NCBI GenBank assembly: GCA_964492775.1
Contig: CAZBLH010000003.1
Span: 28,572 to 92,571, forward strand
DNA: 64,000 nucleotides
Reading direction: 5' to 3'
From: an uncultured Eubacteriales bacterium
GTDB lineage: Bacteria; Actinomycetota; Coriobacteriia; Anaerosomatales; PHET01
Part shown: positions 20,116 to 33,991 of the stretch, piece after piece
Layout of the letters: every line of letters begins with the position of its first letter
Numbering within the stretch: the stretch's first letter is position 1
The notes under the pieces: model-generated
What the model saw: only the letters and a program-made list of their open reading frames with translations
What the model was told of the DNA's origin: nothing
Database searches by the model: none
Position numbers and translations under genes: made by a program

Positions 20116-20749
20116 TGTCGTCAAGCGCGTGGGTGACATCGTGGTCTCGGCGCTGGCTCTCGTGCTACTGAGTCCGCTGCTCGCCCTGATCGCCATCGGC
20201 GTCCTCATCACGATCGGAAGTCCTGTGCTCTTCCGGCAGGAGCGGCCCGGCAAGGGCGGACGCATCTTCACCATCTACAAGTTCCGGACGATGCGCGATG
20301 CGCAGGGCGCCACCGGTGCCGCAGCCGTCGACACCGACGCCGAGCGTCTCACGGCCTTCGGCAGACTCTTGCGCGCGAGCTCCCTCGACGAACTGCCGGA
20401 GCTGGTGAACGTGCTCAAGGGAGACATGAGCATCGTCGGCCCTCGGCCACTGCTGCCGGAGTACTTGCCGCGATACAATGAGAGGCAGGCCAGACGACAT
20501 GAGGTTCGGCCGGGAATCACCGGATGGGCGCAGGTCCATGGCAGGAACGCCCTGTCGTGGGAGGAGCGCTTCGAGATGGACGTCGAGTACGTGGACAACC
20601 GCTCGCTCGGGCTGGATCTGCGCATTCTCGCGATGACCGTCAGCACCGTGTTCTCCCGCAAGGGTGTCTCTGCCGAAGGACACGCGACGATGCCGCCGTT
20701 CGATCCCGAGGGCACCTCGACCGCCGATAAGGACGTGAACGCACGATGA
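20090..20749 (+). CDS. Small monotopic phosphoglycosyl transferase (PglC/WecP-like sugar transferase, initiating enzyme)
   Basis: 219 aa. KR..D, SP(L/V)LF.Q.R.G..G..F...KFRTM, DELP and GPRP motifs are typical of the bacterial sugar transferase family. Confidence 0.9.
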   Translation: MKRSHRAFDVVKRVGDIVVSALALVLLSPLLALIAIGVLITIGSPVLFRQERPGKGGRIFTIYKFRTMRDAQGATGAAAVDTDAERLTAFGRLLRASSLDELPELVNVLKGDMSIVGPRPLLPEYLPRYNERQARRHEVRPGITGWAQVHGRNALSWEERFEMDVEYVDNRSLGLDLRILAMTVSTVFSRKGVSAEGHATMPPFDPEGTSTADKDVNAR

Positions 20750-21363
20750 GACTGCTAGTAGTGGGAGCTGGCGGCCATGCGAAGGTCGTGATCGACGCCG
20801 CACGCCTCTGCGGATATGAGATCGCAGGTGTCATCGGCAGTGCAGATGGAACGCCTGAGGTCCTCGGAGCGCCGGTCACGACAGATCCGGCTGGCCTCAA
20901 CGCTTCTGGCTTCATCGTCGCCGTCGGCGACAACCACGAGCGCGCGCGCCTGTTCGCCGAGCACCAGAAGCTGGGACTAGAGCCTGCGAACGTGATTCAT
21001 CCGTCTGCGGTCATCGCTCAGGACGCCGAGCTCGGACCCGGCACGTTCGTGGCGGCCAACGTCACTGTGAACCCGGGAGCTCGCATCGGCAGCAATACGA
21101 TTCTCAACACCGGCTGCACCGTGGACCATGACTGCGAGATCGGCGTGCACGTGCACATCGGCCCCGGTGCCAACCTGTGCGGTGGCGTCGTCGTTGGTGA
21201 GGGAACCCTCCTTGGCGTGGGGTCGTGCGCGGTCCCACGGTCGCGTATCGGCGAGTGGGCCGTCGTCGGCGCAGGCGCCGCAGTGACGCAGAACATCCCC
21301 GACCGCGCCGTCGCGGTGGGCGTGCCCGCACGCGTGACGAGACTCGCGGGGGCGGACCAGTGA
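20746..21363 (+). CDS. NeuD/PglD-family sugar N-acetyltransferase (left-handed beta-helix)
   Basis: 205 aa. N-terminal Rossmann-like LLVVGAGGHAKVV is followed by hexapeptide repeats. The start overlaps the upstream stop. Confidence 0.88.
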   Translation: MRLLVVGAGGHAKVVIDAARLCGYEIAGVIGSADGTPEVLGAPVTTDPAGLNASGFIVAVGDNHERARLFAEHQKLGLEPANVIHPSAVIAQDAELGPGTFVAANVTVNPGARIGSNTILNTGCTVDHDCEIGVHVHIGPGANLCGGVVVGEGTLLGVGSCAVPRSRIGEWAVVGAGAAVTQNIPDRAVAVGVPARVTRLAGADQ

Positions 21364-22580
21364 CTACGGCACTCGCGATTGACGGTGGGGCGCCGGTCAG
21401 GACCACTCCCATGCCGAGGTGGCCGTCGCTCGGCGAGTCCGCTGCCGAGGCGGCTGCGGCGGTAGTCCGTTCGGGGCGCCTCAACTATTGGACCGGCGAT
21501 CGCGGCCGCGAGCTGGAGCGTGAGTACGCGAGCTCGCTCGGGCGGAAGCACGCGGTGGCCGTCGCCAACGGTACCGTGGCACTCGAGCTTGCGCTGCGCG
21601 CATTCGGGATCGGACCCGGTGACGAAGTCATCGTGCCAGCACGCACCTTCATCGCGACAGCCGGCGCCGTCGTAGCAGTCGGCGCTGCTCCCGCGATCGC
21701 CGACATCGACACCACGAGCAACAACCTGACCGCCAACACGGTCTCAGCCGTACTCACCGACCGGACGCGCGCCGTCATCCCGGTCCACCTCGGCGGATGG
21801 CCGGTTGACATGGACCCCATCATCGCGCTCGCCGATGAGCGCGGCCTCATCGTGATCGAGGACTGCGCGCAGGCCCACGGTGGCACGTATCGAGGCCGCC
21901 CCATCGGTTCGCTCGGCAGCCATGCTGCCGCGTTCTCGTTCTGCCAGGACAAGATCCTGCCGGTCGGCGACGGTGGCCTGCTGGTGCTCGACGACGATCT
22001 CGCATTCGATCGCGCTTGGAGCTACAAGGATCAGGGCAAGTCGTTCGCGAAGGTGGAGGCGCTCGACTCGGCTCGGCCGGGTGCAAGCTTTCAGTGGCTT
22101 GTCGACAGCTTCGGCTCCAACCTGCGCTTGGACGAGATCTCGGCCGCGCTCGCGCTTGACAGCCTTGCGCACCTGGACGAATGGCACGCGGCTCGAACCC
22201 GGAACGCCACGCGTGTTGCCGAGGGGCTGCGAGGTGTAGCCGGCATCAGCGTGCCCCTGCCCGAGCCCGGCAGCGAGCACGCGTTCTACCGACTCTACGG
22301 CTCAATCGACCCCGAGGCGCTCGCGGACGGATGGGACCGCGACCGGGTGCTTCAGGCAATCATCGCCGAGGGCGTCCCGGTTCAGTACGGCGCCTGCGCC
22401 GAGATCTACCGCGAGGAGGCGTTCGCACGCGCCGGGCTCGCTCCCGCCGAGCGGCTGCCGGGCGCTGCACGCGCACACGAGACCTCGATCGCGTTCTTCG
22501 TGCATCCGACGCTCGGCGATTCGGACATTGACGACACGGTCGCGGCCGTACGCAAGGTCATGGAGGCTGCGACGCGATGA
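21360..22580 (+). CDS. DegT/DnrJ/EryC1 (PglE-like) sugar aminotransferase
   Basis: Homology starts at VTTALAIDGGAPV. GTG at 21360 overlaps the upstream TGA (GTGA). The track ORF from 21225 is over-extended. AHGG.Y.G...GS and SF...K (PLP Lys) are present. Confidence 0.9.
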   Translation: MTTALAIDGGAPVRTTPMPRWPSLGESAAEAAAAVVRSGRLNYWTGDRGRELEREYASSLGRKHAVAVANGTVALELALRAFGIGPGDEVIVPARTFIATAGAVVAVGAAPAIADIDTTSNNLTANTVSAVLTDRTRAVIPVHLGGWPVDMDPIIALADERGLIVIEDCAQAHGGTYRGRPIGSLGSHAAAFSFCQDKILPVGDGGLLVLDDDLAFDRAWSYKDQGKSFAKVEALDSARPGASFQWLVDSFGSNLRLDEISAALALDSLAHLDEWHAARTRNATRVAEGLRGVAGISVPLPEPGSEHAFYRLYGSIDPEALADGWDRDRVLQAIIAEGVPVQYGACAEIYREEAFARAGLAPAERLPGAARAHETSIAFFVHPTLGDSDIDDTVAAVRKVMEAATR

Positions 22581-24445
22581 GCGTACGGGGACTCTTCGAT
22601 CGCGTCCGCGCAACTGGCCGCCTCTGGAACTCGGCGTTGATCGCGCTCGACCTGGCGGTCGTGGCGCTGGCGACCACCATCGCCTACTACGCACGTTTCG
22701 AGGGCCAAGTACCCGCGGAGTACGCGCGCTTCACGACCGATCTCATCGTAATCTCGTGTGTCTTGTACGTGGCCCTGTTCGCCTTGGTCGGCCTGTACCG
22801 TCTCGTGCTGCGCTACGTCGGCGTCGACACCCTGCTCAAGCTTCTCGGCGCGGTCTTCTTGGGTGCCGTCACGATCCTTGCCGCCAATGTCACCGCCTCG
22901 GATGCCCAAGGACTGCGCCCCGTACCTATCGGCGTCATCTTCATACAGGCAGTGCTGGTCTTCCTCGGCGCTGCAGGCACCCGGCTGGCCGCACGCGTAC
23001 TGCGATACCTGCAGGCTACGCGAGCCGGGTTCGGGCATCGCGTGCTGATCATCGGCGCTGGCAGCGCGGGCTCGCTGCTGCTGCGCGAAATCCAGGAGCA
23101 CCCGTCGCTCGAGCTGTTCGTCGTAGGCTTCCTCGACGACGACCGACGACTCATCGGTCAGACGATCAATGGCGTCCCAGTGATTGGGACCACCAGCGAG
23201 CTCAGGGAGATCGCCGAGCGCTCGCGCATCGAGGAGATCCTCGTCGCGCTACCCTCTGCGCCGAAAGAGACTGTGCGCCGCATCCTCAACACAGCCGCAG
23301 ACATCGGCATACAGACGCGCGTCATGCCGCAAATCGTGATTGCTAAGGGCTCGGTGAGCCTGCGCGACCTGCGAAACGTCGACGTGGAGGACCTGCTCGG
23401 CAGGAAGCCGACGCCCATTGATGTGGACCAGGTGCGCAACACGATCGCCGGCCGCGTGGTTGCCGTGACTGGCGCGGCGGGCTCAATCGGCTCAGAGTTG
23501 TGTCGGCAGATCGTGCGGCTCGACCCCGCCAAGCTCCTGCTTCTGGAGATCGATGAGACGCGCCTCTACGAGCTGTGGCTCGAACTCGAGGGCATGGCCC
23601 CCGGGACGAGCGAGATGCGCGTGTGCGACATCAGAGACACCCGGGCGCTTGACGTCGTATTCGCTGATGACGCGCCCTCGGTCGTTCTGCATGCGGCGGC
23701 ATACAAGCACGTCCCCGTCATGGAGCTCGCGCCCGCCGAGGCGATCAAGACCAACGTCGGCGGCACCCGCAACGTAATCGAGGCCTGCGAGCGGTTTGGG
23801 ACCGAGCGCTTCGTGCTCATCTCCACCGACAAGGCGGTTGCGCCCGTCAACATCATGGGGCTGACCAAGTCCCTTGCCGAGCGGATCATGCTGGATGCGA
23901 CGCGGCGCGGTGGACTGAACGCCGTCGCGGTGCGGTTCGGCAACGTGTTGGCCAGCCGTGGCTCGGTCGTGCCGATCTTTGAGGAGCAGCTGCGCCGCGG
24001 GGGGCCGCTCACCGTCACGCATCCTGAGGTCACGCGGTACTTCATGACGATCCCCGAGGCCGCGCGTCTCGTGCTACAAGCCCAGGCCATCGGCTCCAGC
24101 GGAGACATTTTCGTGCTCGAGATGGGCGAGCCGGTCAAGATCGTCGACCTCGCCAGGAAGATGATCGCGCTGTCAGGCGTGCCGGCCGACATCGCGTTCA
24201 TCGGACTGCGCCCGGGAGAGAAGCTGCACGAGGAGCTCGTCAACGAGTGCGAAGAGCTGCTCCCGACCGAGCGGGAGAAGATTCTGCGGGTCAGACACGT
24301 CGACGTTCTCGGCACCGACCTTGGCAGCCGCATCGATGCGCTCGTCGTGGCCGCCGAGCAAGGCAAGGCCATCGAACTGACACCGCTGATCGATCAGCTC
24401 GAACCAGGATTCTACGATCGGGAGGGCGCGGCGTGCCGAGTGTGA
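22577..24445 (+). CDS. Membrane-bound CapD/PglF-like UDP-GlcNAc 4,6-dehydratase
   Basis: 622 aa. N-terminal TM helices are followed by two Rossmann domains (GAGSAG and VTGAAGSIGSEL). YKH..ME and STDKAV are typical of the Polysacc_synt_2 family. Confidence 0.9.
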   Translation: MSVRGLFDRVRATGRLWNSALIALDLAVVALATTIAYYARFEGQVPAEYARFTTDLIVISCVLYVALFALVGLYRLVLRYVGVDTLLKLLGAVFLGAVTILAANVTASDAQGLRPVPIGVIFIQAVLVFLGAAGTRLAARVLRYLQATRAGFGHRVLIIGAGSAGSLLLREIQEHPSLELFVVGFLDDDRRLIGQTINGVPVIGTTSELREIAERSRIEEILVALPSAPKETVRRILNTAADIGIQTRVMPQIVIAKGSVSLRDLRNVDVEDLLGRKPTPIDVDQVRNTIAGRVVAVTGAAGSIGSELCRQIVRLDPAKLLLLEIDETRLYELWLELEGMAPGTSEMRVCDIRDTRALDVVFADDAPSVVLHAAAYKHVPVMELAPAEAIKTNVGGTRNVIEACERFGTERFVLISTDKAVAPVNIMGLTKSLAERIMLDATRRGGLNAVAVRFGNVLASRGSVVPIFEEQLRRGGPLTVTHPEVTRYFMTIPEAARLVLQAQAIGSSGDIFVLEMGEPVKIVDLARKMIALSGVPADIAFIGLRPGEKLHEELVNECEELLPTEREKILRVRHVDVLGTDLGSRIDALVVAAEQGKAIELTPLIDQLEPGFYDREGAACRV

Positions 24446-26274
24446 CGGAGAGCCGGTCAGCCGCATGGGAACGGGCCTCGTGGCTCGCGTTCCTTGCACT
24501 GTTCGCGGTCACGACCTTGGCCGTCGCCAAGGTTCCCTTCCTGCCGGACACGAACCCGGTCGTCGAGCGCTTCACTGGCCCCGAGTTTTCGGCGCTCACC
24601 GTCTTCACGATCATCGCCGCTATGGCATGGTTCATCAGCTGGATTCTCGGCGAGAGAGCCGCGAGGGTCACCCGAGCGCACCTCGCACTTGCCGCCACGT
24701 GTGTGGTCGGCGTCGCCTCGACGGTCATCGCAGACGTACGACCCCTCGCGCTCGTCGGCGAGAGTGGTCGCTACATGGGCCTTGTGACGTGGTTATGCCT
24801 CGCGGTAACGCTCTTACTCGCCACTCAGCTCGTGCGAACGCCGTCGCGTCTTGGGACTCTCAGCCGAGTGGTCATCATCGTCGGCGTGATCCAGGCGGTC
24901 ATCGGCCTCTCGCAGGTTCTCGGCATCGATATCTTGCGCTTCGACTTCCCTGAGCAGTACCGCTGGATGCTCGCACAGGGCGTGGGCACCGTGGGAAACC
25001 CCAACCAGTACTCCACCACACTCATCGTCCCGTTCATCCTGGCTTGTGCCGAGGCACTGTCGGCAGAATCCCGCCGGTGGCGGTACTTGGCCGTGACGGC
25101 CATGGTCGTCACCGGCATCGCTATCGTCGCTTCGGCCACCCGCGGCACATGGATCGGTGCACTGGTCGGGGCAGTCATCGTCGCGATACTCGCAGTGCGA
25201 TGCCGTCTCGCCCGCGGCAGGGCCATCTGGATCGGGGCAGCCGTTCTGGTAGGCACCGTCGCGCTCGGCTCGCTCCTCGCCGACCCCGCCATCCTCGGCA
25301 CGCGCTTCGATCAGGGCGACGCCAACGGAGGCGCAGCCGTCGAGCAACTGTCGAGTGGCAGACTTGCCCTCTGGCGCCAGGGCGTGGATGTCTTCGGCAG
25401 CCATCCAGTGCTCGGAGTCGGACCCGACTCGATTCGCAACGCCTACAAGGCGGCCGGCCATTCCACTGGAATCAGAGGAGTCTTTACTGACGACCCTCAC
25501 AGCCTGCCGCTACTCGTCGCAGTGTCGTTCGGTGCGGTCGGACTTGGGGCTGCCGCTTGGCTCCTCTGGGCCCTCTTGAGCCAGCCGATGATGCGGGTGA
25601 TCCGCGACCCCAGATCCGCGAAGGGCGAGACTTTCGCGCGCATGAACGCGTGGTTTGCCGGCTCTCTCGCCCTGCTCGTCACGTCTCTCGTGTCCGTGAT
25701 CTCGATTCCGATGATGGTCGCGGTCGCGGTTGCCGTTGGCACCGCTTACGCACCGTTCCTGGCGCGCACCGCCGAGCGAAGGGCGCCCGCATGGAGCACT
25801 GTCGTCGCAGGTGTGCTGCTCATTGGCTTCGCGGGACTCTCCATCTGGGCCTCCCTCGTGCCGCTCTACCACAACGCTCGAATCACGGCCGTGCCGCTTG
25901 AAGTGCCTCTCTCGGAAAACGATCTCGCCGTCCTCCACGCAGCTGACAGCGCGCTGCCGTGGCGCTACGAGATGCTTTCGAGGCGCACGAACAAGATCAT
26001 CGAGCAGGCGTCGTTCGAGTACTCGCAAGGGAGTTCCTCGGCTGCCGAAGCGCGTCTCGCACAGCTGCGAGAGCAGTTGGACCAGCGTGTCCAAGTGTAC
26101 CCTGCCGAGTACTTCGCCTGGTACAACCGTGCGAAAGCATGGGCCGACTCGGCAGCAATCACAGGCGACAGGGAGCTCGGCGCGCAGGCCCGCGATATCA
26201 TCGCCGAAGCGCTAGAGCGCTTCCCTGACGACCTCGAGCTCATGGCCTTGTCGATCACCGCGCGCGGGCTATGA
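24433..26274 (+). CDS. Wzy_C (O-antigen ligase-like) polytopic membrane protein with C-terminal helical-repeat (TPR-like) domain
   Basis: In-frame GTG at 24433 (or 24442) overlaps the PglF-like stop. The Wzy_C core is SATRGTWIGALVG...GRLALWRQG...HPVLGVGPDS...DPHSLPLL. The last 150 aa or so are soluble and helical. Confidence 0.8.
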   Translation: MPSVTESRSAAWERASWLAFLALFAVTTLAVAKVPFLPDTNPVVERFTGPEFSALTVFTIIAAMAWFISWILGERAARVTRAHLALAATCVVGVASTVIADVRPLALVGESGRYMGLVTWLCLAVTLLLATQLVRTPSRLGTLSRVVIIVGVIQAVIGLSQVLGIDILRFDFPEQYRWMLAQGVGTVGNPNQYSTTLIVPFILACAEALSAESRRWRYLAVTAMVVTGIAIVASATRGTWIGALVGAVIVAILAVRCRLARGRAIWIGAAVLVGTVALGSLLADPAILGTRFDQGDANGGAAVEQLSSGRLALWRQGVDVFGSHPVLGVGPDSIRNAYKAAGHSTGIRGVFTDDPHSLPLLVAVSFGAVGLGAAAWLLWALLSQPMMRVIRDPRSAKGETFARMNAWFAGSLALLVTSLVSVISIPMMVAVAVAVGTAYAPFLARTAERRAPAWSTVVAGVLLIGFAGLSIWASLVPLYHNARITAVPLEVPLSENDLAVLHAADSALPWRYEMLSRRTNKIIEQASFEYSQGSSSAAEARLAQLREQLDQRVQVYPAEYFAWYNRAKAWADSAAITGDRELGAQARDIIAEALERFPDDLELMALSITARGL

Positions 26275-27382
26275 TCCTCGCAGTGTCTTCGCTGCGCGCG
26301 TACCAGCTGCACTCGGCTTCGGCATAGCGCCGACCGTTCGCCCCCAACTCGGCGGCGAGACCCGGAGAGCCTGCCAGCTGCGCGACCGCCCTGGCGAGCG
26401 CCTCAGGGTCACGCTGGGGCACGATCAGCCCTGCTCGGTTGTCGCGGACGACCTCGGTGAGTCCGGGCATCCCGTCTGTGGCGATCACGGGAGTACCCGA
26501 AGCCATCGATTCGTAGAGCTTGAGTGGCGAGATGCCCGCCTCGGAGAACTCATCGGCTTCTTTGTTCACGAGCGAGACGAGCGCGTGCGCGACAACGCCG
26601 GCGATCTGGTCATAGGGCAGCGTGCCGAGGTAGACGACGCGCGAATCGGTCCGAGCAGCCTCCTCGACCTCGGCCCGCTTCGTTCCCTGCCCCACGATCA
26701 AGAGTGAGACGTCCTGGGGCCACTCAGGCCTCCGAACAGCCTCCAAACTGGTGGATATTCCCTGCCACGGCGCGAACGAGCCAAAGAACACGGCGTAGCG
26801 CCCTGGAACGACGATTCCTTCCGGTATCTCCTCGTCGGGGTTGAAGATCTCCGTGTTCGCGCCGTTGGGGACGATGTCTGCGACGACTCCAGTCTCACGC
26901 AACAGCCACTCGGCAAGCCCGCTCGACCCGGCGATCACGGCGTCCGCTCGGCGGAACTGGGTATAGGTGAGCCACCTGATGAGCGGAGCGAACAGGCGCG
27001 CCGACGGCCACGCGATGAAGAAGTCGTCCACGATACCGTTGCACTCCTGGACGACCGTGACGCCTCTGCGACGAGCGCCCTCCGAAGCCCACCAGGCGAG
27101 CGCATGACCGCGCACGTAGAGCACATCGTACCGGTCCATCGCATCGAGTACCCTGCGCTGGACTCGGGCGAACTCGAGAACCCGCCCGATTGCCCCCGGC
27201 GCCTCCTTGCCCGCGTATGAAGGCTCGAAGAGATCGACTGCTGCGCCCTGTTTTCGAAGGCCGCTGATGATCTCGTGAACGTGTGCGTACGATGCCTGAC
27301 CCGGTGTGGTCGCCTGCAGGCAGAGGTAGGCGATCCTGATTCCTGCGACCGGGGAGGCGTCGATCGGCGCCGGACCAACCAT
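26255..27382 (-). CDS. Glycosyltransferase family 4
   Basis: Starts at MVGPAPIDA (ATG 27382, TGATG junction with the upstream gene). The track ORF is over-extended to 27664. The GT4 E-x7-E region is SPLKLYESMASGTPVIATD. It is a paralog of 44137..45261. Confidence 0.85.
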   Translation of the reverse strand: MVGPAPIDASPVAGIRIAYLCLQATTPGQASYAHVHEIISGLRKQGAAVDLFEPSYAGKEAPGAIGRVLEFARVQRRVLDAMDRYDVLYVRGHALAWWASEGARRRGVTVVQECNGIVDDFFIAWPSARLFAPLIRWLTYTQFRRADAVIAGSSGLAEWLLRETGVVADIVPNGANTEIFNPDEEIPEGIVVPGRYAVFFGSFAPWQGISTSLEAVRRPEWPQDVSLLIVGQGTKRAEVEEAARTDSRVVYLGTLPYDQIAGVVAHALVSLVNKEADEFSEAGISPLKLYESMASGTPVIATDGMPGLTEVVRDNRAGLIVPQRDPEALARAVAQLAGSPGLAAELGANGRRYAEAECSWYARSEDTARIIARAR

Positions 27383-28227
27383 CACACCCTCCCCGTCTGC
27401 GCCATGCGCCGCCTGATCGGGATGCCCCAGCGGTGCCAGCGAAGCGCGAGCTTCAGCCGATACCTGCGAATCGCCTTGCGGGCGAGATCGGTCTCCCGCT
27501 GGTCTAGCATACCCTCGGCGATCAGGTACTCGATGATCTCGATGTGTGAGCGCCAGACCGCTGCGACATCGTCGCTCACCCGGTTGGGCGCGTCTTGGTA
27601 GTAGAGAAAAACAGGCTCCGGCAGGTGATGGTGAGTCGCACCCATCGCCACAGCGCGCATCCACAGATCGATGTCTTCCGAGCGCGATTCCGGTCTTGGG
27701 CCTCCGGTCATCTCAAACACTCCGCGCGTCATCACCGCACTCGTACCGATGAGCAGCCCCGAGAGCATGTCGCCGATGGAGAGTGACGACTCCTCTTGGA
27801 ACACCGGCGCGGTGTAGTAGTAGACACGGCGCCCGTCAGCGAACACCTGGTAGCCGTTGGTGCTCACGATCTCGGCGTCAGGGTGCTTGCCGAAGAACGC
27901 CTCGACCTTCTCGAGGTACTCAGGCGTGAACGCATCATCAGCATCGAGCCGCGCGAAGAGCTCGCCTCGCGCCTGCTGCATCGCCTCGATGCGCGAAGCC
28001 GTCACCCCGCGGTGCGCACACGCGTACACCCGGATGCGTACATCCTGCTCGGCGTAGGAACGCGCCAGCGCGAGCGTGCCGTCGGTGGAGCCGTCGTCGA
28101 TGATGATGTGCTCCCAGTCGTCGAACGCCTGAGCAAGCACGGACTCGATGGCGCGCGAGAGGGTGCGCTCGGCGTTGTACGCCGGCGTGAGGACCGAGAA
28201 ACGTGGTGCCTTCTCCCGCTCGGCCAC
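27382..28227 (-). CDS. Glycosyltransferase family 2
   Basis: FSVLTPAYNAERTL...IIDDGSTDGT...DADD is a GT2 signature. GTG at 28227 is preferred (GGAGGAAGGAG 5 nt upstream, no overlap with the upstream gene). The ORF extends to 28377. Confidence 0.82.
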   Translation of the reverse strand: MAEREKAPRFSVLTPAYNAERTLSRAIESVLAQAFDDWEHIIIDDGSTDGTLALARSYAEQDVRIRVYACAHRGVTASRIEAMQQARGELFARLDADDAFTPEYLEKVEAFFGKHPDAEIVSTNGYQVFADGRRVYYYTAPVFQEESSLSIGDMLSGLLIGTSAVMTRGVFEMTGGPRPESRSEDIDLWMRAVAMGATHHHLPEPVFLYYQDAPNRVSDDVAAVWRSHIEIIEYLIAEGMLDQRETDLARKAIRRYRLKLALRWHRWGIPIRRRMAQTGRV

Positions 28228-28264
28228 CGATGCTCCTTCCTCCGGTTGCTGGCTACGCGCTTCC

Positions 28265-30235
28265 TCACCGGAAGACTCGGGCGAGACGCCGAGCCGCACT
28301 CGTGGCATATCGCCTGAGAACACGGGCAGCTGCGCGCACATCTCTCGCCTTAGGCACCAGGATGTCAGCATATCCAAAACCGCTTTCGCGTTTCATCAGG
28401 TACACGATGACCGCCGAATAGATGCAGTACGTCGTGCTCGACGCCAGTGCAGCACCCATGATGCCGAATCGCGGGATCACTATGAGGTTCGCTACGGCGT
28501 TCAGCACGACCATCACCGCCGAGGTGCGCCAGTAGATCACCTCACGCGAGAACAGGTAGGAGCTCGGCACCTCGGAGATGCTCATCGCGGCCACTCCGGG
28601 CAGGAGCGCCAGAAGGACCGGACCCGCCTCAGCGAACGTCGGTCCGAACACGACAGGCACGAGCATGGGCCCGAAAAGCGCAAAGACCGCGACGATGCCG
28701 AGCACGAGCAGCACCGTGAGTCTCGAGACGCCCGCCGACAGCGCCGAGCCCTCGTCGCGACCCACCTGCGATGCGCGCGCGAAGAGTGCCGAGCCCAGAA
28801 CGACAGGAATGTAGCGCGCCACCTCGGCAAGGCTCGTCGAGACCGAGTACACGCCCACGGCGGCCTGCCCGGCAAGCCACCCGAGGATCAGCATGTCCTG
28901 GCGAAGGTGCAGGTAGCCCACGAGCGACACGAAATACGACTTCGCTGAGTAGCCCACCATCGCGCGCATCGCGCCGAGGTCGAGCCGCCAGCCGGTCATC
29001 ATCCGACCGCGCTCAAGCAAGAGAAGGACGGCCGATGCAACCGCCTGCCCGAGCACGCCGAGCGAAACCATGAACAGCGCCGAAAGCAACCCGGCTTGCC
29101 ACAGGACGAACGCGCCCATGAGCACGAGAGTGACCGAGCTGATGCCCGCTATCGCCTGCGGACGCAGGCCCGAGAGTCCGATCGCAATGGCACCGAGCCA
29201 GGCGAAGAGCGTTGTCGTCACGAACAGCACCGCAGCCACGAGCGCCATGGCCAGCGAGTACGGCGGATCGGGCGCAAGAGGTCCGGTGATGACGAGCAGG
29301 CAGGCGATGGTTGCCGCGAGGCCCGTGACGCCGGTGAGCAGGACGCTGTTCGCCACAGCAGAGCCCGGGGTGACCTCTCTGCGCGCCACGAAGTAGACGT
29401 TCGATGTGGACAGCCCGAGCCCGAGCACGACGACGAGCACGCCCACGATCTGCTGAACGAGCGCGTACCCACCCTTGCCGACCGGCCCCAGCGCCCGTGC
29501 GAGAATGACGCCGATGAGGAAGTTCACGGCTACTGTGACGAACTTTGCGGCCAGGCCCCACGCAGTGGAAGCACCGAGTCGATGTCGACGAGGGCGCGCC
29601 GTCTGAGCGAGCGCCGCCACAGGAATCTCCGCCGGATCGAGCTCGTCCATGGTGACGAACGCCGCGCCTTGCGCAATGAGCTCGTCCAGGATTCCCGGCA
29701 GTGCCTCCGCTGTGACCTCAGGCCAACTGTGCAGCAGCACGATCAGGCTACCGCTGCCCGCGGCAGCGCGTTCGGAGTGCGCCGCGACCACGCGGCTGGC
29801 GAGCTGATCGGCCGTCGAACCCTGCTCCCAGTCGAGGCTGTCGAGGTGCCAGCCGATCTGCCGGTAGCCTGCTGCCTCGATGTGCGACAGTACCTGCGAA
29901 TCGAATGCTCCCGAGTTCTGCGGGCAGCGGAAGTACGGGCGCGGCGACTGGCCCGTTGCGCGCTCAATCGCCTCCTCGGCGCGTTTGACCTCGCTCCGAA
30001 GCTCCGCTTCTGTGATCTGGCCGGGAAGCGCGTGCGAGTAGGTGTGATTGCCGACGCGATGGCCATCGCGCGTCAGTCGCGCTGCAAGCTCGGGGTTCGC
30101 CTCGGCCCACTCGCCCTGGAGGAAGAAGGTGGCCACGACGCCACGCTCGGCGAGTACCTCGATGATCCGCTCCGCCACCGCAGGGTCATGCCCGTGCGGT
30201 GCAGGCTCGACATCGAAGGTGAGCGCTACCTTCAT
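28265..30235 (-). CDS. Fusion protein: N-terminal polysaccharide deacetylase (NodB/CE4) + C-terminal Wzx-type (MOP) flippase
   Basis: 656 aa. Residues 1 to about 200 are ALTFDVEP...GNHTYSH...LLHSW (CE4 motifs), with no signal peptide. Residues from about 215 to the end have about 12 TM helices with polysaccharide-biosynthesis-protein (Wzx) similarity. This part is clearly paralogous to 47962..49347. Confidence 0.85.
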   Translation of the reverse strand: MKVALTFDVEPAPHGHDPAVAERIIEVLAERGVVATFFLQGEWAEANPELAARLTRDGHRVGNHTYSHALPGQITEAELRSEVKRAEEAIERATGQSPRPYFRCPQNSGAFDSQVLSHIEAAGYRQIGWHLDSLDWEQGSTADQLASRVVAAHSERAAAGSGSLIVLLHSWPEVTAEALPGILDELIAQGAAFVTMDELDPAEIPVAALAQTARPRRHRLGASTAWGLAAKFVTVAVNFLIGVILARALGPVGKGGYALVQQIVGVLVVVLGLGLSTSNVYFVARREVTPGSAVANSVLLTGVTGLAATIACLLVITGPLAPDPPYSLAMALVAAVLFVTTTLFAWLGAIAIGLSGLRPQAIAGISSVTLVLMGAFVLWQAGLLSALFMVSLGVLGQAVASAVLLLLERGRMMTGWRLDLGAMRAMVGYSAKSYFVSLVGYLHLRQDMLILGWLAGQAAVGVYSVSTSLAEVARYIPVVLGSALFARASQVGRDEGSALSAGVSRLTVLLVLGIVAVFALFGPMLVPVVFGPTFAEAGPVLLALLPGVAAMSISEVPSSYLFSREVIYWRTSAVMVVLNAVANLIVIPRFGIMGAALASSTTYCIYSAVIVYLMKRESGFGYADILVPKARDVRAAARVLRRYATSAARRLARVFR

Positions 30236-31158
30236 GACCGGCCGCCTCTGCGCATGGTGAGCGACGCAACCCGAGCGGCGACCGGCCGCAAGGCATTTGA
30301 GCTCACATGCATGGCTTCAGAAACCCACTCGCCGGCTCGCTCGCCAAGTACCCGGGCCACGGCGTTCTTGACCGCGGTGCGCCGCAGGTAGATCCACTCG
30401 TCCTGCCGAGCGCGCGCGATCGCCGCGCGCGCCGCCACTGCCTGTTCCGGCGAGAAGGTCCCGTCGTCGATCAGGCGCTGGTAGATGGCGAGCCGCGACT
30501 CGAACAGCTTCACGACATCGGCCGTCATCTGACACTCGCTCGCGTAGAACACCGCAAGCATCTGCGGCGTGTAGCGGTGCCGAGCGCCGGACGCGAGCGC
30601 CCGCAACCAGAAATCGACGTCCTCACAGTAGACGTCGGGCCGGATGCCGCCGACCCGCTCGAACAGCTCCCGCGAGAAGACGGCGATCGTGAAGATGTGC
30701 GTGGCCTGAAGCATCTCCTCGAGCGTGAACGAGCGCTCGACCTGGTAGAACGCGCCAGGCCTCGCGAGCCGGCGCGTGCCATCAGGGTTAACGTGCCATC
30801 CGTTGCAGCTGTAGATGTCGTAACCCGGCCTCGCCCGGATGAACTCGTCCATCCGGGCGAGGTATTCGGGCAGCAGTTCGTCGTCGGCGTCGAACCGGAC
30901 GACGTACTCGCCGCTGGACACGCGCACGGCGGTGTCCCGGGCGGCTCCGCACCCGGCGTTTTCCTGGCGCACGAGCCGGATGCGGCCGTCACGCTCGGCG
31001 TACGCCGACACAACCTCGGCGGTAGCGTCGACCGAGCCGTCGTCGGTGACGACGAGCTCCCAGTCCTCGAAGGTCTGCGCGAGGACGCTGTCGAGCGCAC
31101 GCGGGAGCGTCGCGGCCGCATTGAATGCGGGCATCGCTATCGAGAAGCGCGGGCTCAC
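30232..31158 (-). CDS. Glycosyltransferase family 2
   Basis: 308 aa. FSIAMPAFNAA...VVTDDGSVD...FDADD. 4-nt overlaps at both ends. Confidence 0.85.
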   Translation of the reverse strand: MSPRFSIAMPAFNAAATLPRALDSVLAQTFEDWELVVTDDGSVDATAEVVSAYAERDGRIRLVRQENAGCGAARDTAVRVSSGEYVVRFDADDELLPEYLARMDEFIRARPGYDIYSCNGWHVNPDGTRRLARPGAFYQVERSFTLEEMLQATHIFTIAVFSRELFERVGGIRPDVYCEDVDFWLRALASGARHRYTPQMLAVFYASECQMTADVVKLFESRLAIYQRLIDDGTFSPEQAVAARAAIARARQDEWIYLRRTAVKNAVARVLGERAGEWVSEAMHVSSNALRPVAARVASLTMRRGGRS

Positions 31159-32144
31159 GGGCGCCGCCCTTTGCGGCGAGCTCGCTCGGCAAGCGCGATC
31201 CTAAGCGGTTGCACGATGCCTTTGACCCGGTTCGCAGCCCGGATCACCGAATCCCCGGCGCGCCTGCCGAACACGCGGTAGACGCCGGCCTTGAAACGCC
31301 TGGCCTGGGCATCCGTGTACTCGGCGACGGTCGTGCCGTCCTCCTCGAGCTGACGAATGCGCTCACGGAACCGCTCGATCGACTTGGTGGCAAGCGCCTT
31401 CTCGCGCTCGCCGAACGTCCCGTCGGCAGAGAGTTCCTCGAGAATGTCGATGTAGGACAGGAACGACGGAATCGGGTCCTCATTCATCCGGCCGGACAGC
31501 TCCATCGTGTACAGGTAGATGTGCTCGGGCACGTAGCGGTGCCTCGCGCCAGCCGCGAGCGCGCGCAGCCACAGGTCGTAGTCCTCGCAGCGCACGTGAG
31601 GCCGAAAGCCACCCAGGCGCTCGAGAGTGCTACGACGGATCGTGGCCGCGCCACCAAAGATCCAGCAGTCCTCGATGAGATCGTCGACCGTGAGTGAGAG
31701 CGAGCGCAGATACTTCGGGTCGTTCAGAGCCTCTCGCCGGGTGCCGTCTGGGTAGACCTTGTAGCCCGTCGCCGAGTAGATGTCGTAGCCCGGCTCCGCA
31801 TCGATTGCGCTCGAGAGCACCGAGAGCGCGTCAGGAGTCAGGGCGTCGTCAGCGTCAATCTTCGTGACGAACTCCCCGCAGGCGACGGCCGCTCCCGCCT
31901 GGCGCGCTCCCGCACATCCGGCGTTTCGCTGCGTGAGCACGCTCACTCGCTGGTCGGTGCGCTCCCACCCGCGCGCGATCGACAACGTGTCGTCCGCCGA
32001 GCCGTCGTCGACCACGATGAGCTCGAAGTCCCGGCAGCTCTGCGACAACACGCTTTCGACTGCCCGCGCAAGCGTCCCTGCGGCGTTGTACGCGGGCATT
32101 ACCAGCGAGAAGCGCGGCGAGGAGCCGTGGTCGGATGCGGTCAC
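31155..32144 (-). CDS. Glycosyltransferase family 2
   Basis: 329 aa. FSLVMPAYNAAGTL...IVVDDGSADDT...IDADD. It is a paralog of the neighbouring GT2. Confidence 0.85.
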   Translation of the reverse strand: MTASDHGSSPRFSLVMPAYNAAGTLARAVESVLSQSCRDFELIVVDDGSADDTLSIARGWERTDQRVSVLTQRNAGCAGARQAGAAVACGEFVTKIDADDALTPDALSVLSSAIDAEPGYDIYSATGYKVYPDGTRREALNDPKYLRSLSLTVDDLIEDCWIFGGAATIRRSTLERLGGFRPHVRCEDYDLWLRALAAGARHRYVPEHIYLYTMELSGRMNEDPIPSFLSYIDILEELSADGTFGEREKALATKSIERFRERIRQLEEDGTTVAEYTDAQARRFKAGVYRVFGRRAGDSVIRAANRVKGIVQPLRIALAERARRKGRRP

Positions 32145-33991
32145 TGCGCCAGCATCTCCTCGGCACGCGTGATGTACGCCTCGGTGGCCGGATACGTGGC
32201 GCCAAGAGCCCGAGCACGAGCGATGCGCTCCGGCAGCGAGGCCGTATCACCCGTCACAATTGCGAGGTGCAGCTGCTCGGCGGCGAGGGAGGGCAAATCC
32301 GGGACAGCCTCCTCGGCGCGCTCGAGCAGGCCGCGCTCCCACGAGAAGTCGGTCTCGCCGAGCGACTCACCCTGACCCATGCCGAACGCCGCGAACTGCA
32401 CCAGGTTAGGCGCGAAGCCGGTGATGTATCCGGGAGCCGCATCCACGGAGGCACGCGCGGCGGCGAGTTCGTCCGAGGTCGCGGCGCCAATGAGCGCGAG
32501 ATCGATCCGGCGGCGCTCGTTCAGCGGCTCACCGGGGATGATACGAGCCGCACGCTCGACGCGCGCGACGTCGTCGGCAAGGCTTCCCTGGCCGGCGATC
32601 TGGCCGGCATCAAGCCCGAAGCCGCGCCACACGCCGTAGCCCCCGAGTGCGACCGCTAACACGAGCGCCACCCAGCGAAGCGCTCCAGATGCACCGAGCT
32701 CACGCTCACCCGCCGAAGAATGCGCTGGAGCAGCGATGGCAAACCCGCCGACGACGACGCCCAGCAGCCCTGAGGCAAAATGCACCGGTGTGACCATGAG
32801 CGAGAACAGGTACGCGGCGAAGCCGACCGCGAGACCGAGCCGCACGGTGTTCGCAGGTGAGTGAGGCGCCGGCGCAACCAACTCAGCCACTCGGCGAGTC
32901 CAGATCACGAGCAGTGCGACGAGAGCGGCCATGCCGAGCAACCCGAGGCGCGTGAGCGCCTCCCAGAGCAGCGAGTGCGGCGAGGGGGCGCTGAAGGCGG
33001 TCGGATCGCTACCGGCCCCCGCGATGTAGGCGAACACGCCGGGGTCGTACCGGTCGACCGCGAAGAACCGGTACCCTGCCGGGCCGAACCCGAGCACAGG
33101 CCGCTCGGCGACCATGCGCTGTGCGCCCTCCCAAAGGTACAGGCGCGTAGCCACTGTCTGCTCGGCGCCCGCGCCCTTCTCGGCATCGATGAGCCACGAC
33201 CCCAGGGCCGGGACCTGCACCAGCACGATCACCACGCACGCGAGTGCCAGGACCGCCGCCGCTGAGACGCGTAGCGCGCGGTGCCACGAAGTCGGCACGG
33301 GCAGCAGCTGCGGCCCCGCGACGCACGTGAGAAGCAACCCCATGCCGAGCATGAAGATCGCCGAGAGCCCCGCCGCCGCGTAGGCGAGGCCGAGCGCCAT
33401 GCCGAGTGCCAGGAGGTCGTAGGCGAGCGGGCGCTCCGAGGTCCTCGCCAGGCCGAGCGACACGAAGATGAGCGGCGCGAGGGCGGGTACCGAGTAGGCC
33501 GGGCTGCCGAAGGTGGTCACGAAGCCCTGGGTCCAGCGCCAGACGACCATCACCGCGATCAGCGCCGCGCCGGCGTACACGGTCCAGCGCATCGCTTCGC
33601 GCGTGTGCTCGCCCAGCGGGAAGCATGCAGCTACGAGAAAGACCGCCGGGTACGCGAGCCATAGCACGCCCGGCATCTCCCCGTAGAGATCGAACAGCGC
33701 CTGCTGCACAGGAAAGACGTTGCTCGCGAGCGAGAAGGCAGCCACCGCGAGCAGCCCTGCGATCCCAGCAAGCACGGAGCGCCTCGGCAGGCGCAGACGC
33801 GGTGCGAGCCACGCGGCAGCCGCGATCCACACCCCTGCTGTCACGAGATGCAGCGCCTGGGCGGCAGGCTGCGCCGGCAGGGTCACGACAAGCCATGCGC
33901 CAGGCGACAGGAACGCCGCGAGGACGAGCAGGGTGACGAGCCGGGGATCGAGACGCGGGCCGGAGTTGGACGGAGCTTTAGCCATGTTCAC
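32141..33991 (-). CDS. Wzy_C (O-antigen ligase-like) polytopic membrane protein with soluble C-terminal domain
   Basis: 616 aa. The Wzy_C core is RLYLWEGAQRMVAERPVLGFGPAGY...PSPHSLLWEALTRLGLLG. It has more than 10 TM helices. Confidence 0.78.
   Translation of the reverse strand: MNMAKAPSNSGPRLDPRLVTLLVLAAFLSPGAWLVVTLPAQPAAQALHLVTAGVWIAAAAWLAPRLRLPRRSVLAGIAGLLAVAAFSLASNVFPVQQALFDLYGEMPGVLWLAYPAVFLVAACFPLGEHTREAMRWTVYAGAALIAVMVVWRWTQGFVTTFGSPAYSVPALAPLIFVSLGLARTSERPLAYDLLALGMALGLAYAAAGLSAIFMLGMGLLLTCVAGPQLLPVPTSWHRALRVSAAAVLALACVVIVLVQVPALGSWLIDAEKGAGAEQTVATRLYLWEGAQRMVAERPVLGFGPAGYRFFAVDRYDPGVFAYIAGAGSDPTAFSAPSPHSLLWEALTRLGLLGMAALVALLVIWTRRVAELVAPAPHSPANTVRLGLAVGFAAYLFSLMVTPVHFASGLLGVVVGGFAIAAPAHSSAGERELGASGALRWVALVLAVALGGYGVWRGFGLDAGQIAGQGSLADDVARVERAARIIPGEPLNERRRIDLALIGAATSDELAAARASVDAAPGYITGFAPNLVQFAAFGMGQGESLGETDFSWERGLLERAEEAVPDLPSLAAEQLHLAIVTGDTASLPERIARARALGATYPATEAYITRAEEMLAQ

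What the first reader, a model, noticed from the sequence alone, without database searches (positions are those of the whole stretch)
28265..30235. Deacetylase-flippase gene fusion (cytoplasmic CE4 domain fused to a Wzx transporter)
A NodB/CE4 domain with intact metal and catalytic motifs (TFDVEP, HTYSH) and no signal peptide is fused in one ORF to a 12-TM Wzx-type flippase. Module B encodes the same two functions as separate genes (52567..53604 and 47962..49347). A fusion implies that de-N-acetylation of the lipid-linked oligosaccharide is coupled to its translocation, possibly as a quality-control or gating step. I am not aware of a characterised example.
Basis: partly seen in the sequence, partly recalled or inferred. 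Interest (0 to 1): 0.55.

Follow-up and report, generated by a model that had tools for sequence, protein, structure and literature searches.

The report
Cytoplasmic deacetylase fused to Wzx flippase
One gene in an uncultured Coriobacteriia-type bacterium joins a sugar-deacetylating enzyme facing the cell interior to the membrane flippase that exports cell-surface sugar units, a real but rare and unstudied arrangement that links two steps normally done by separate proteins.

Summary
Window 28265..30235 (-) is one uninterrupted 656-aa ORF. It has an N-terminal CE4/NodB domain (aa 1-199), a disordered linker of about 23 residues, and a complete 12-TM Wzx-type flippase (aa 223-656). It is not an assembly artefact. 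The same architecture occurs in at least 18 protein clusters (39-67% identity) and in 3 of 185,579 species-representative genomes, all uncultured Coriobacteriia. The CE4 domain is cytoplasmic: it has no leader peptide, K+R counts are 28 inside against 2 outside, and the membrane domain has a WzxE-like fold. Fusion is not obligatory. Two lineages nested inside the fused clade encode the same modules as adjacent genes, one pair translationally coupled, in an otherwise syntenic locus. The "intact metal motif" claim needs a caveat. The canonical metal-binding Asp is replaced by Val/Thr, with an invariant Glu two residues after the catalytic Asp (D-x-E). The most likely function is deacetylation of the lipid-linked repeat unit at the inner membrane face just before flipping. 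That idea is already proposed for separate proteins (HfsH/HfsF, ArnD/ArnEF), and flippase gatekeeping is known for TacF. I found no paper describing such a fusion. Verdict: a new variant of a known kind, of moderate interest.

The parts
28265..30235 (-). Whole CE4-Wzx fusion gene (656 aa plus stop codon)
   Evidence: Single ORF. Pfam PF01522 + PF01943 + PF13440. AlphaFold2 mean pLDDT 89.3.
29639..30235 (-). CE4/NodB deacetylase domain, aa 1-199, leaderless, predicted cytoplasmic
   Evidence: Pfam 4.9e-28. PDB sequence hits 2j13, 5o6y, 4l1g and 2c1g. Foldseek 7fbw with target TM-score 0.89.
30203..30220 (-). CE4 motif 1, TFDVEP (aa 6-11): D8 is the catalytic Asp, V9 replaces the canonical metal Asp, E10 is invariant
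   Evidence: HMMER alignment to 5o6y puts D8 on the first Asp of TFDD. D8 and E10 are 29/29 conserved. D-x-D precedent in HP0310, Asp12/Asp14.
30032..30046 (-). CE4 motif 2, HTYSH (aa 64-68), the two metal-binding His
   Evidence: H64 and H68 are 29/29 conserved and align to the HxxxH of solved CE4 enzymes.
29909..29944 (-). CE4 motif 3 region, PRPYFRCPQNSG (aa 98-109). R103 and P105 are invariant. The QNS loop is specific to the flippase-linked clade.
   Evidence: pLDDT is below 50 at aa 106-110.
29828..29842 (-). CE4 motif 4, DSLDW (aa 132-136)
   Evidence: D135 is 29/29 conserved. Aligns to DxxDW of 5o6y.
29729..29737 (-). CE4 motif 5, LLH (aa 167-169), catalytic His
   Evidence: H169 is 29/29 conserved. 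Aligns to the LxH of solved CE4 enzymes.
29570..29638 (-). Interdomain linker, aa 200-222 (DPAEIPVAALAQTARPRRHRLGA), basic just before TM1
   Evidence: pLDDT below 50 at aa 208-219. Variable sequence but similar length in homologues. This is where the split relatives have their stop/start overlap.
28268..29569 (-). Wzx-type (PST/MOP) flippase domain, aa 223-656, 12 TM helices, N-in/C-in
   Evidence: Pfam. Hydropathy and positive-inside counts. Foldseek WzxE 9g9p with target TM-score 0.79, also MurJ. 38% identity to the unfused paralogue 47962..49347.
30232..30235 (-). ATGA overlap between the stop of the upstream GT2 gene and the fusion's start codon (translational coupling)
   Evidence: Sequence read.
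30232..31158 (-). GT2 glycosyltransferase immediately upstream (conserved neighbour)
   Evidence: Pfam PF00535 1.4e-33. Same position in L001, L084 and L003.
31155..32144 (-). Second GT2 glycosyltransferase (conserved neighbour)
   Evidence: Pfam PF00535. Synteny.
32141..33991 (-). Wzy_C-domain membrane protein (polymerase/ligase-like)
   Evidence: Pfam PF04932. Syntenic in L001 and L084.
27382..28377 (-). GT2 glycosyltransferase downstream. The true start is probably near 28227, which would give a protein of about 281 aa as in relatives.
   Evidence: Pfam PF00535 3.3e-32. The 278-aa homologue is in the same position in L001 and L084. The start position is my inference from the ORF translation.
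26255..27664 (-). GT4 glycosyltransferase downstream
   Evidence: Pfam PF00534/PF13439. Syntenic.
24247..26274 (+). Wzy_C-domain membrane protein
   Evidence: Pfam PF04932 2.5e-18.
18952..24445 (+). Precursor/initiation operon: GT4, small PglC-like phosphoglycosyltransferase (20090-20749), NeuD/PglB/VioB-family acetyltransferase (20746-21363), DegT aminotransferase (21225-22580), PglF/CapD-like 4,6-dehydratase (22577-24445)
   Evidence: The acetyltransferase scores 212.5 bits against a cut-off of 160.8.
47962..49347 (-). Unfused Wzx paralogue ('module B')
   Evidence: Pfam PF01943. 38% identity over 425 aa to the fusion.
52537..53604 (+). Module B CE4 protein, a different subfamily with canonical ITFDDG, not an orthologue of the fused CE4

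Best explanation
This is a genuine bifunctional membrane protein of a Wzx/Wzy-type cell-envelope glycan pathway in an uncultured Coriobacteriia-like actinobacterium. The N-terminal leaderless CE4 domain is held on the cytoplasmic side by a flexible tether of about 23 residues attached to TM1 of a complete 12-TM Wzx flippase. Most likely, the lipid-linked (undecaprenyl-diphosphate) repeat unit is built by the neighbouring glycosyltransferases. The CE4 domain then removes an acetyl group from one of its sugars at the inner face of the membrane, probably an N-acetyl group (inferred). The Wzx domain then flips the modified unit outward for polymerisation by the Wzy_C proteins. The tether raises the local enzyme concentration at the flippase entrance and fixes a 1:1 stoichiometry. 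This favours export of modified units. It does not create an obligatory mechanical coupling, because split versions persist in sister lineages. Shown here: the architecture, the topology, conservation of catalytic residues, synteny and the fused/split pattern. Inferred: the substrate, N- versus O-deacetylation, the order of steps and any kinetic channelling.
For: The ORF is continuous and its domains score above Pfam cut-offs. The AF2 model has two confident domains and a disordered linker. Folds match CE4 enzymes (target TM-score 0.89) and the solved Wzx flippase WzxE (0.79). There is no leader and the start overlaps the upstream stop as ATGA. K+R counts are 28 in predicted cytoplasmic loops against 2 outside, and 19-29 against 2-6 across 20 relatives. 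Wzx has an experimentally mapped N-in/C-in topology with 12 TMS (PMC2932511). The architecture is conserved in at least 18 clusters down to 39% identity and in 3 GTDB species representatives. D8, E10, H64, H68, R103, D135 and H169 are invariant in 29 sequences. The split forms have a 208-aa leaderless CE4 immediately upstream of the Wzx, with an ATGA overlap in L001/L002 and a 14-nt gap in L084/L085, in the same gene order, and they nest inside the fused clade. The conserved neighbours are GT2-GT2-[CE4-Wzx]-GT2-GT4 plus Wzy_C. The window also encodes a phosphoglycosyltransferase and a bacillosamine-type precursor set that would supply N-acetylated sugars. Published pathway models place HfsH before the flippase HfsF and ArnD before ArnE/F. 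Wzx and TacF discriminate between substrate decorations.
Against: There is no biochemical evidence for activity, substrate or order of steps. The canonical metal-binding Asp of CE4 motif 1 is absent (Val/Thr), and E10 as its substitute is only inferred from the D-x-D arrangement of HP0310. The best structural matches include acetylxylan esterases, so O-deacetylation is not excluded. The nearest stand-alone D-x-E CE4 relatives lie in sugar-catabolism-like contexts, not next to flippases, so this subfamily can act on soluble substrates. Split forms show the fusion is dispensable. The relative orientation of the two domains could not be examined because no coordinates or PAE were available.
Confidence: 0.6

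Rival explanations
1. The CE4 domain is an O-acetyl esterase rather than a de-N-acetylase. It would remove an O-acetyl group from the lipid-linked unit before flipping, or edit O-acetylation. The architecture and timing are the same but the chemistry differs.
For: The top Foldseek matches are acetylxylan esterases 7fbw and 2cc0. CE4 as a family contains both esterases and de-N-acetylases.
Against: By sequence the best family matches are de-N-acetylases: PdaB, PdaA, NodB and PgdA models and PDB entries 2j13, 5o6y, 4l1g and 2c1g. The only acetyltransferase found in the module is of the NeuD/PglB/VioB sugar N-acetyltransferase family. The locus supplies N-acetylated amino sugars.
Confidence: 0.15
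2. The CE4 domain acts on a soluble cytoplasmic substrate, such as a nucleotide sugar or a free oligosaccharide as NodB does. The fusion would then only secure co-expression, stoichiometry or membrane localisation, with no direct hand-over to the flippase.
For: Stand-alone leaderless relatives with the same D-x-E motif sit beside GH4/ROK/ABC-transporter or NagA-like/SIS genes. NodB is a weak NCBIfam match (95.7 bits).
Against: Across the whole clade the CE4 is always fused to, or immediately upstream of, the Wzx (overlapping it in L001/L002), never elsewhere in the locus. The flippase-linked clade has its own active-site loop, RCPQNSG instead of RCPYGDG. A short tether to TM1 places the enzyme at the membrane surface.
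Confidence: 0.12
3. The CE4 domain is a catalytically dead sugar-recognition or regulatory module (a pseudoenzyme). It would sense the acetylation state of the unit and gate the flippase.
For: The canonical metal-binding Asp is missing. CE4 pseudoenzymes exist, for example BA3943 (6hm9/7bkf) among the structural matches.
Against: The catalytic Asp, both His, the Arg, the motif 4 Asp and the catalytic His are all invariant, as is E10. A D-x-D arrangement binds the metal in HP0310. The same motif set is kept in free-standing relatives that have no flippase to regulate.
Confidence: 0.08
4. The fusion is an assembly or sequencing artefact: a lost stop or frameshift between two adjacent genes.
For: Naturally split two-gene versions exist in close relatives, so a single indel could interconvert the two states. 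Raw reads were not available.
Against: Fused ORFs of 642-668 aa occur in at least 18 independent clusters from different samples and in 3 reference MAGs. The window's linker aligns without indels to the fused homologues.
Confidence: 0.02
5. The CE4 domain is extracellular, making this an ordinary membrane-anchored secreted deacetylase.
For: Most characterised bacterial CE4 peptidoglycan and polysaccharide deacetylases act outside the cytoplasm.
Against: There is no signal peptide or TM helix before the domain. The positive-inside bias is strong, 28 against 2. There is an even number of TM helices, and the Wzx fold has experimentally cytoplasmic termini. The split-form CE4 is a 208-aa protein with no leader.
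Confidence: 0.02

Closest known systems
Caulobacter crescentus holdfast pathway: HfsH (CE4 deacetylase) and HfsF (Wzx-type flippase)
   Same: It is a Wzx/Wzy-type pathway. The published model has a CE4 deacetylase modify the lipid-linked repeat unit before the flippase moves it across the membrane (10.1101/523142). Both halves of the window protein give weak hits to the HfsH and HfsF models.
   Different: HfsH and HfsF are separate proteins. The window protein scores far below both equivalog cut-offs (25.5 against 400, and 19.3 against 700), so it is an analogue and not an orthologue. The organism is an actinobacterium, not an alphaproteobacterium.
ArnD (CE4-fold deformylase) followed by the ArnE/ArnF flippase in lipid A aminoarabinose modification
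   Same: A deacylase acts on an undecaprenyl-phosphate-linked sugar, and the product is then flipped (PMC12690121). The logic of 'unmask the amine, then flip' is the same.
   Different: The substrate is a monosaccharide on Und-P and the reaction is deformylation. The flippase is a small SMR-like heterodimer, not a MOP/Wzx protein. The proteins are separate. No ArnD model appears among the NCBIfam hits at E<=0.01.
WzxE (ECA lipid III flippase, PDB 9g9p etc.) and other Wzx/PST-family MOP flippases
   Same: The C-terminal 434 aa share the fold (target TM-score 0.79), the Pfam families, the 12-TM N-in/C-in layout, and a genomic context of GTs and Wzy-like proteins.
   Different: Characterised Wzx proteins are single-domain. 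This one carries a 200-aa enzyme on its N terminus. Sequence identity to WzxE in the structural alignment is only about 17%.
TacF, the pneumococcal teichoic-acid 'gatekeeper' MOP flippase
   Different: In TacF, selectivity lies in the transporter itself and the decorating enzymes are separate. Here the decorating enzyme is covalently attached, and no selectivity has been shown.
Classical CE4 de-N-acetylases (PdaA/PdaB, PgdA, Bc1960, NodB)
   Same: NodB fold. Motifs 2-5 and the catalytic Asp of motif 1 are conserved. NodB is likewise leaderless and cytoplasmic (my own knowledge).
   Different: Scores are below every equivalog cut-off. Motif 1 is D-x-E instead of D-D. The flippase-linked clade has its own motif 3 loop (RCPQNSG). 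Most of these enzymes are extracytoplasmic and act on polymers.

Membership tests
Carbohydrate esterase family 4 (NodB homology domain, Pfam PF01522) | Sequence match to the family profile above the curated threshold | tested here: met
   98 bits against a cut-off of 23.1, aa 2-126.
Carbohydrate esterase family 4 (NodB homology domain, Pfam PF01522) | Distorted (beta/alpha) barrel NodB fold | tested here: met
   The AF2 model is confident in this domain. Foldseek 7fbw gives target TM-score 0.89, with 2cc0, 4l1g and 2c1g also matching.
Carbohydrate esterase family 4 (NodB homology domain, Pfam PF01522) | Motif 1 catalytic-base Asp | tested here: met
   D8 aligns to the first Asp of TFDD in 5o6y and is 29/29 conserved.
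Carbohydrate esterase family 4 (NodB homology domain, Pfam PF01522) | Asp-His-His metal triad (second Asp of motif 1 plus HxxxH) | tested here: inconclusive
   H64 and H68 are present and invariant. The canonical Asp position holds V9 (T in most homologues). An invariant E10 gives a D-x-E spacing like the D12-x-D14 of HP0310, where Asp14 binds the metal. Geometry was not measured because no coordinates were available.
Carbohydrate esterase family 4 (NodB homology domain, Pfam PF01522) | Motifs 3 (Arg), 4 (DxxDW) and 5 (LxH, catalytic His) | tested here: met
   R103, D132-S-L-D135-W136 and L167-L168-H169 are present. R103, D135 and H169 are 29/29 conserved.
Carbohydrate esterase family 4 (NodB homology domain, Pfam PF01522) | Metal-dependent deacetylase/esterase activity | not testable with these tools
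   Needs an enzyme assay.
Wzx / polysaccharide transporter (PST) family of the MOP superfamily | Sequence match to PF01943 / PF13440 above threshold | tested here: met
   47.4 bits against 28.2, and 42.5 bits against 23.
Wzx / polysaccharide transporter (PST) family of the MOP superfamily | 12 TM helices with both termini cytoplasmic | tested here: met
   This is a prediction only. Twelve helices come from hydropathy plus AF2. K+R counts are 28 inside against 2 outside. It is consistent with the mapped topology of P. aeruginosa Wzx.
Wzx / polysaccharide transporter (PST) family of the MOP superfamily | MOP flippase fold | tested here: met
   Foldseek gives WzxE 9g9p a target TM-score of 0.79 and MurJ 7wax 0.68.
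Wzx / polysaccharide transporter (PST) family of the MOP superfamily | Context of a Wzx/Wzy-dependent pathway (initiating phosphoglycosyltransferase, GTs, Wzy-like polymerase) | tested here: met
   PglC-like PGT at 20090-20749, GT2 x3, GT4 x2 and Wzy_C x3 lie nearby.
Wzx / polysaccharide transporter (PST) family of the MOP superfamily | Translocation of Und-PP-linked oligosaccharide | not testable with these tools
   Needs genetic complementation or a flipping assay.
HfsH / HfsF equivalogs (Caulobacter holdfast) | Score above the NCBIfam equivalog cut-off | tested here: not met
   HfsH scores 25.5 against 400. HfsF scores 19.3 against 700.
PdaA / PdaB / NodB / PgdA equivalogs | Score above the NCBIfam equivalog cut-off | tested here: not met
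   PdaB 131.9 against 237.4. PdaA 103.4 against 298. NodB 95.7 against 240. PgdA 88.1 against 400.
ArnD deformylase | Sequence match to an ArnD family model | tested here: not met
   No ArnD model is among the NCBIfam hits at E<=0.01. This assumes NCBIfam holds an ArnD model, which I did not verify.

The most novel reading that the evidence does not exclude
The tethered CE4 domain docks onto the inward-open cytoplasmic mouth of the Wzx domain. The lipid-linked repeat unit would then be deacetylated while already engaged with the flippase, and only the deacetylated (cationic) product would trigger translocation. That would be a covalently built-in 'edit-then-flip' checkpoint and the first natural enzyme-flippase channelling device in the MOP superfamily. 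In split lineages the same complex would form non-covalently.
Probability: 0.2. Interest if true: 0.65.

Novelty: new variant of a known kind. Interest (0 to 1): 0.4.

Why it matters
How Wzx flippases recognise their substrates, and how cytoplasmic tailoring is coordinated with export, is still debated (Liu et al. 2018; TacF 2026). A natural enzyme-flippase fusion, with matched split versions in sister lineages, is 'Rosetta-stone' evidence that a cytoplasmic CE4 and a Wzx work together. It also gives a convenient object for testing whether tailoring enzymes dock physically on flippases, for example by cryo-EM of a single polypeptide or by fused-versus-split complementation. It points to a subfamily of leaderless D-x-E CE4 enzymes that probably act inside the cell. 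If the product carries free amino groups, the polymer would be cationic or zwitterionic, which matters for cell-surface properties. The impact is limited because both activities, and the concept of deacylation before flipping, are already known, the clade is small and uncultured, and fusion is evidently dispensable.

Tried and rejected
(1) Reverse-order or independent CE4-flippase fusions elsewhere. Multi-stretch hits of the exhaustive search with a C-terminal CE4 (P0051, P0052, P0057, P0060, P0179, P0182, P0047, P0113, P0037, P0038) turned out to be tandem-CE4 proteins without a flippase. A CE4-only search listed 120 hits, all single-domain apart from one with an extra GH57 match, and none with a flippase. 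Only the top 150 and top 120 hits are visible, so weaker independent fusions cannot be excluded.

(2) An internal translation start for a separate Wzx. There is an in-frame GGAG-N6-GTG in the window's linker, but it is not conserved in L005 or L006. Rejected.

(3) Module B CE4 as an unfused orthologue. There is no similarity beyond family level. Rejected.

(4) Stand-alone D-x-E CE4 relatives as flippase neighbours. The two long contigs examined show sugar-catabolism-like contexts instead.

(5) ArnD structure paper PMC10914315. It is not held in the library, so the ArnD active-site comparison rests on the HP0310 paper only.

(6) Substrate inference from the GT2/GT4 neighbours. NCBIfam gives only generic, sub-threshold hits such as TuaG, EpsE and PglI, so no sugar can be assigned. 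The Pgl-like precursor operon is not conserved beside the fusion in the relatives examined.

(7) Active-site geometry and domain docking in the AF2 model. The tools return neither coordinates nor PAE.

(8) Bootstrap values for the deepest nodes of the NJ tree were not returned after re-rooting. The inference that the fusion is ancestral rests on tree shape and on the 94% support for the window+P0001+P0015/16 group.
Full report
OBSERVATION. Window 28265..30235 on the minus strand is a single 656-aa ORF that starts with ATG and has no internal stop. Pfam places Polysacc_deac_1 (CE4/NodB) at aa 2-126 (98 bits, cut-off 23.1). It places the Wzx-type families Polysacc_synt and Polysacc_synt_3 at aa 221-537, both above cut-off. 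The ORF begins directly with the first beta-strand of the NodB fold (MKVALTFDVEP). Its ATG overlaps the TGA of the upstream GT2 gene as ATGA. So there is no room for a signal peptide, and the gene is translationally coupled to its neighbour.

NOT AN ARTEFACT. A search of 5.8 billion protein clusters found at least 18 clusters with the same PF01522+PF01943+PF13440 architecture. They are 642-666 aa long and 39-67% identical, and the named ones come from Coriobacteriia MAGs. An exhaustive HMMER search of 1.84 billion 50%-identity representatives returned two full-length fused representatives among the best 150 (P0010, P0036). A scan of 185,579 species-representative genomes found three full-length matches, all uncultured Coriobacteriaceae, Coriobacteriia or Coriobacteriales MAGs (L005-L007). 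The window's linker aligns without indels to those homologues. Raw reads could not be examined, but an artefact that recreates a conserved architecture and a homologous linker is implausible.

STRUCTURE AND TOPOLOGY. AlphaFold2 with the family alignment gives mean pLDDT 89.3. It shows two confident domains and a disordered stretch at aa 208-219. Foldseek matches the N-terminal domain to CE4 enzymes (7fbw with target TM-score 0.89; 2cc0, 4l1g, SpPgdA 2c1g). It matches the membrane domain to the solved Wzx flippase WzxE (9g9p, 0.79) and to MurJ. Hydropathy plus the model give 12 TM helices. The predicted cytoplasmic segments hold 28 Lys+Arg against 2 in the external loops. The same bias holds in all 20 relatives, at 19-29 against 2-6. 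The linker ends in RPRRHR just before TM1. P. aeruginosa Wzx has experimentally cytoplasmic N and C termini and 12 TMS (PMC2932511). The CE4 domain is therefore on the cytoplasmic side.

CATALYTIC MOTIFS. HMMER alignment to Bc1960 (5o6y) puts D8 on the catalytic Asp of the canonical TFDD. It aligns H64/H68 with HxxxH, R103 with the motif 3 Arg, D132-x-x-D135-W136 with DxxDW, and H169 with the catalytic His. D8, E10, H64, H68, R103, P105, D135 and H169 are invariant in 29 fused, split and stand-alone relatives. The canonical metal-binding Asp (second D of TFDD) is Val here and Thr in most homologues. It is followed by the invariant E10. A D-x-D spacing, in which the second Asp binds the metal, is documented structurally in HP0310 (Asp12/Asp14; PMC3084791). 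D8-x-E10 is therefore plausibly a functional variant, but I could not measure the geometry. 'Intact metal motif' should read 'variant motif 1, probably functional'. The flippase-linked clade also has its own motif 3 loop, RCPQNSG, where stand-alone relatives have RCPYGDG or RFPFGDG. That loop is the only low-confidence part of the CE4 model (aa 106-110).

FUSED AND SPLIT FORMS. Three close homologues of the flippase part are unfused: P0015 and P0016 at 67% identity, and P0020 at 59%. In their contigs a 208-aa leaderless CE4 gene lies immediately upstream of the Wzx gene. In L001/L002 the two called genes overlap by 31 nt and are in different frames. The CE4 stop codon also overlaps an in-frame ATG of the Wzx frame as ATGA. 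P0016 was read on 18 contigs. In L084/L085 the two genes are 14 nt apart. The rest of the locus is syntenic with the window: multiheme cytochromes, Wzy_C, GT2, GT2, CE4, Wzx, GT2, GT4. A neighbour-joining tree of the flippase part places P0015/P0016 with the window protein and P0001 (bootstrap 94). P0020 forms a separate branch inside the fused clade. The deepest branch (P0019, 39% identity) is fused. The simplest reading is an ancestral fusion with at least two later fissions that kept adjacency. This is classic Rosetta-stone evidence that the two modules work together. It also shows that covalent linkage is not required.

CONTEXT. In the window the fusion sits among three GT2s (27382-28377, 30232-31158, 31155-32144), a GT4 (26255-27664) and Wzy_C proteins (24247-26274, 32141-33991, 34070-35977). 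An upstream operon encodes a GT4 and a small PglC-like phosphoglycosyltransferase. It also encodes a NeuD/PglB/VioB-family acetyltransferase (212.5 bits against a cut-off of 160.8), a DegT aminotransferase and a PglF/CapD-like 4,6-dehydratase. That is a bacillosamine-type precursor set, which would supply N-acetylated amino sugars. This set is not conserved beside the fusion in the relatives examined, so it does not identify the substrate. The conserved core is GT2-GT2-[CE4-Wzx]. 'Module B' has a full-length unfused Wzx paralogue (47962-49347, 38% identity). It also has a CE4 protein (52537-53604) of a different subfamily with canonical ITFDDG.

RELATIVES OF THE CE4 DOMAIN. A CE4-only search found 375 proteins at E<=1e-8. 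The 120 listed are almost all 190-260 aa, and many of these are only about 195-215 aa long. None carries a flippase domain. The short leaderless ones examined share the D-x-E motif. Two on long contigs lie next to GH4/ROK/ABC-transporter genes or NagA-like/SIS genes. So there is a broader subfamily of probably cytoplasmic CE4 enzymes, from which the flippase-linked clade was recruited. Other Wzx proteins carry different cytoplasmic N-terminal enzymes, for example a GT4-Wzx fusion, P0069.

MECHANISM. Best-supported model (confidence 0.6): the Und-PP-linked repeat unit is assembled at the inner face of the membrane. The tethered CE4 domain removes an acetyl group, most likely from an N-acetyl-hexosamine-type residue. 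The Wzx domain then flips the modified unit, and Wzy_C proteins polymerise or ligate it. The tether gives proximity and 1:1 stoichiometry. Any selectivity of the flippase for the deacetylated product is plausible, given known Wzx substrate preference (PMC6436433) and TacF gatekeeping (PMC13385700), but it is untested. Rivals: O-deacetylation (0.15); action on a soluble substrate, with the fusion serving only localisation (0.12); a pseudoenzyme or sensor domain (0.08); an artefact (0.02); an external CE4 (0.02).

COMPARISON WITH KNOWN SYSTEMS. The concept has precedents with separate proteins. In the Caulobacter holdfast model, HfsH modifies the lipid-linked unit before the flippase HfsF acts. 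ArnD deformylates Und-P-L-Ara4FN before ArnE/F flips it. The window protein is not an orthologue of any of these. It scores below all equivalog cut-offs for HfsH, HfsF, PdaA, PdaB, NodB and PgdA. Full-text searches found no paper describing a deacetylase-flippase fusion. Public annotation calls the homologues 'polysaccharide deacetylase family protein', or lists both COG names.

VERDICT. This is a new variant of a known kind: a rare, clade-restricted, uncharacterised covalent union of two known activities whose sequential action is already postulated elsewhere. Interest is 0.4. It is a useful natural handle on enzyme-flippase coordination, but it is neither conceptually unprecedented nor mechanistically obligatory.

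Noticed in passing
window 35981-37252(-), 37249-38205(-), 39982-41733(-); also L001 1-1659 and L084 275-1564, 10501-11856: Multiheme c7/c3-type cytochrome genes lie directly beside the glycan locus. The same adjacency is conserved in the related contigs. This neighbourhood is unusual for Coriobacteriia-like genomes and may point to extracellular electron transfer at the cell surface.
   Followed up: partly
window 24247-26274(+), 32141-33991(-), 34070-35977(+), 45311-46651(-): There are four Wzy_C (O-antigen polymerase/ligase-like) genes within 22 kb, and one has C-terminal TPR repeats. It is unclear which are polymerases and which are ligases.
   Followed up: no
window 57781-60411(-): An 876-aa protein has RCC1 repeats, Big_5 Ig-like domains and three CWB2 cell-wall-binding domains. 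It is a candidate surface protein that could be anchored to the polymer made by the neighbouring loci.
   Followed up: no
window 49347-50474(-): A radical SAM gene lies immediately upstream of the module B Wzx, with start and stop abutting. It suggests an unusual sugar modification in module B.
   Followed up: no
P0069 (842 aa; not in the window): This is a GT4 glycosyltransferase fused to the N terminus of a Wzx-type flippase. P0039 and P0064 are Wzx proteins with extensions of about 340 aa that have no Pfam match. Enzyme-Wzx fusions may be a broader, unsurveyed phenomenon.
   Followed up: partly
P0210 in L086 7001-7645; P0224 in L087 7001-7621: Stand-alone leaderless CE4 proteins share the same D-x-E motif 1 and sit beside GH4/ROK/ABC-transporter genes or NagA-like amidohydrolase/SIS genes. 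This is a probable cytoplasmic CE4 subfamily involved in amino-sugar catabolism.
   Followed up: partly
window 29591-29603 (-), linker of the fusion: An in-frame GGAG-N6-GTG lies at V206 and could act as an internal start for a stand-alone Wzx. It is not conserved in L005 or L006.
   Followed up: yes
window 22577-24445(+): The N-terminal 270 aa of the PglF/CapD-like dehydratase match the N-terminal membrane region of WbaP/WcaJ-type phosphoglycosyltransferases (TIGR03025 positions 2-239). The actual PGT of the locus is a small PglC-like protein.
   Followed up: no
window 54590-55885(-), 38386-39750(-) / 38380-39663(+), 51332-52687(-): These long ORFs have no Pfam match. For the overlapping pair at 38.4-39.7 kb it is unclear which strand is coding.
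   Followed up: no
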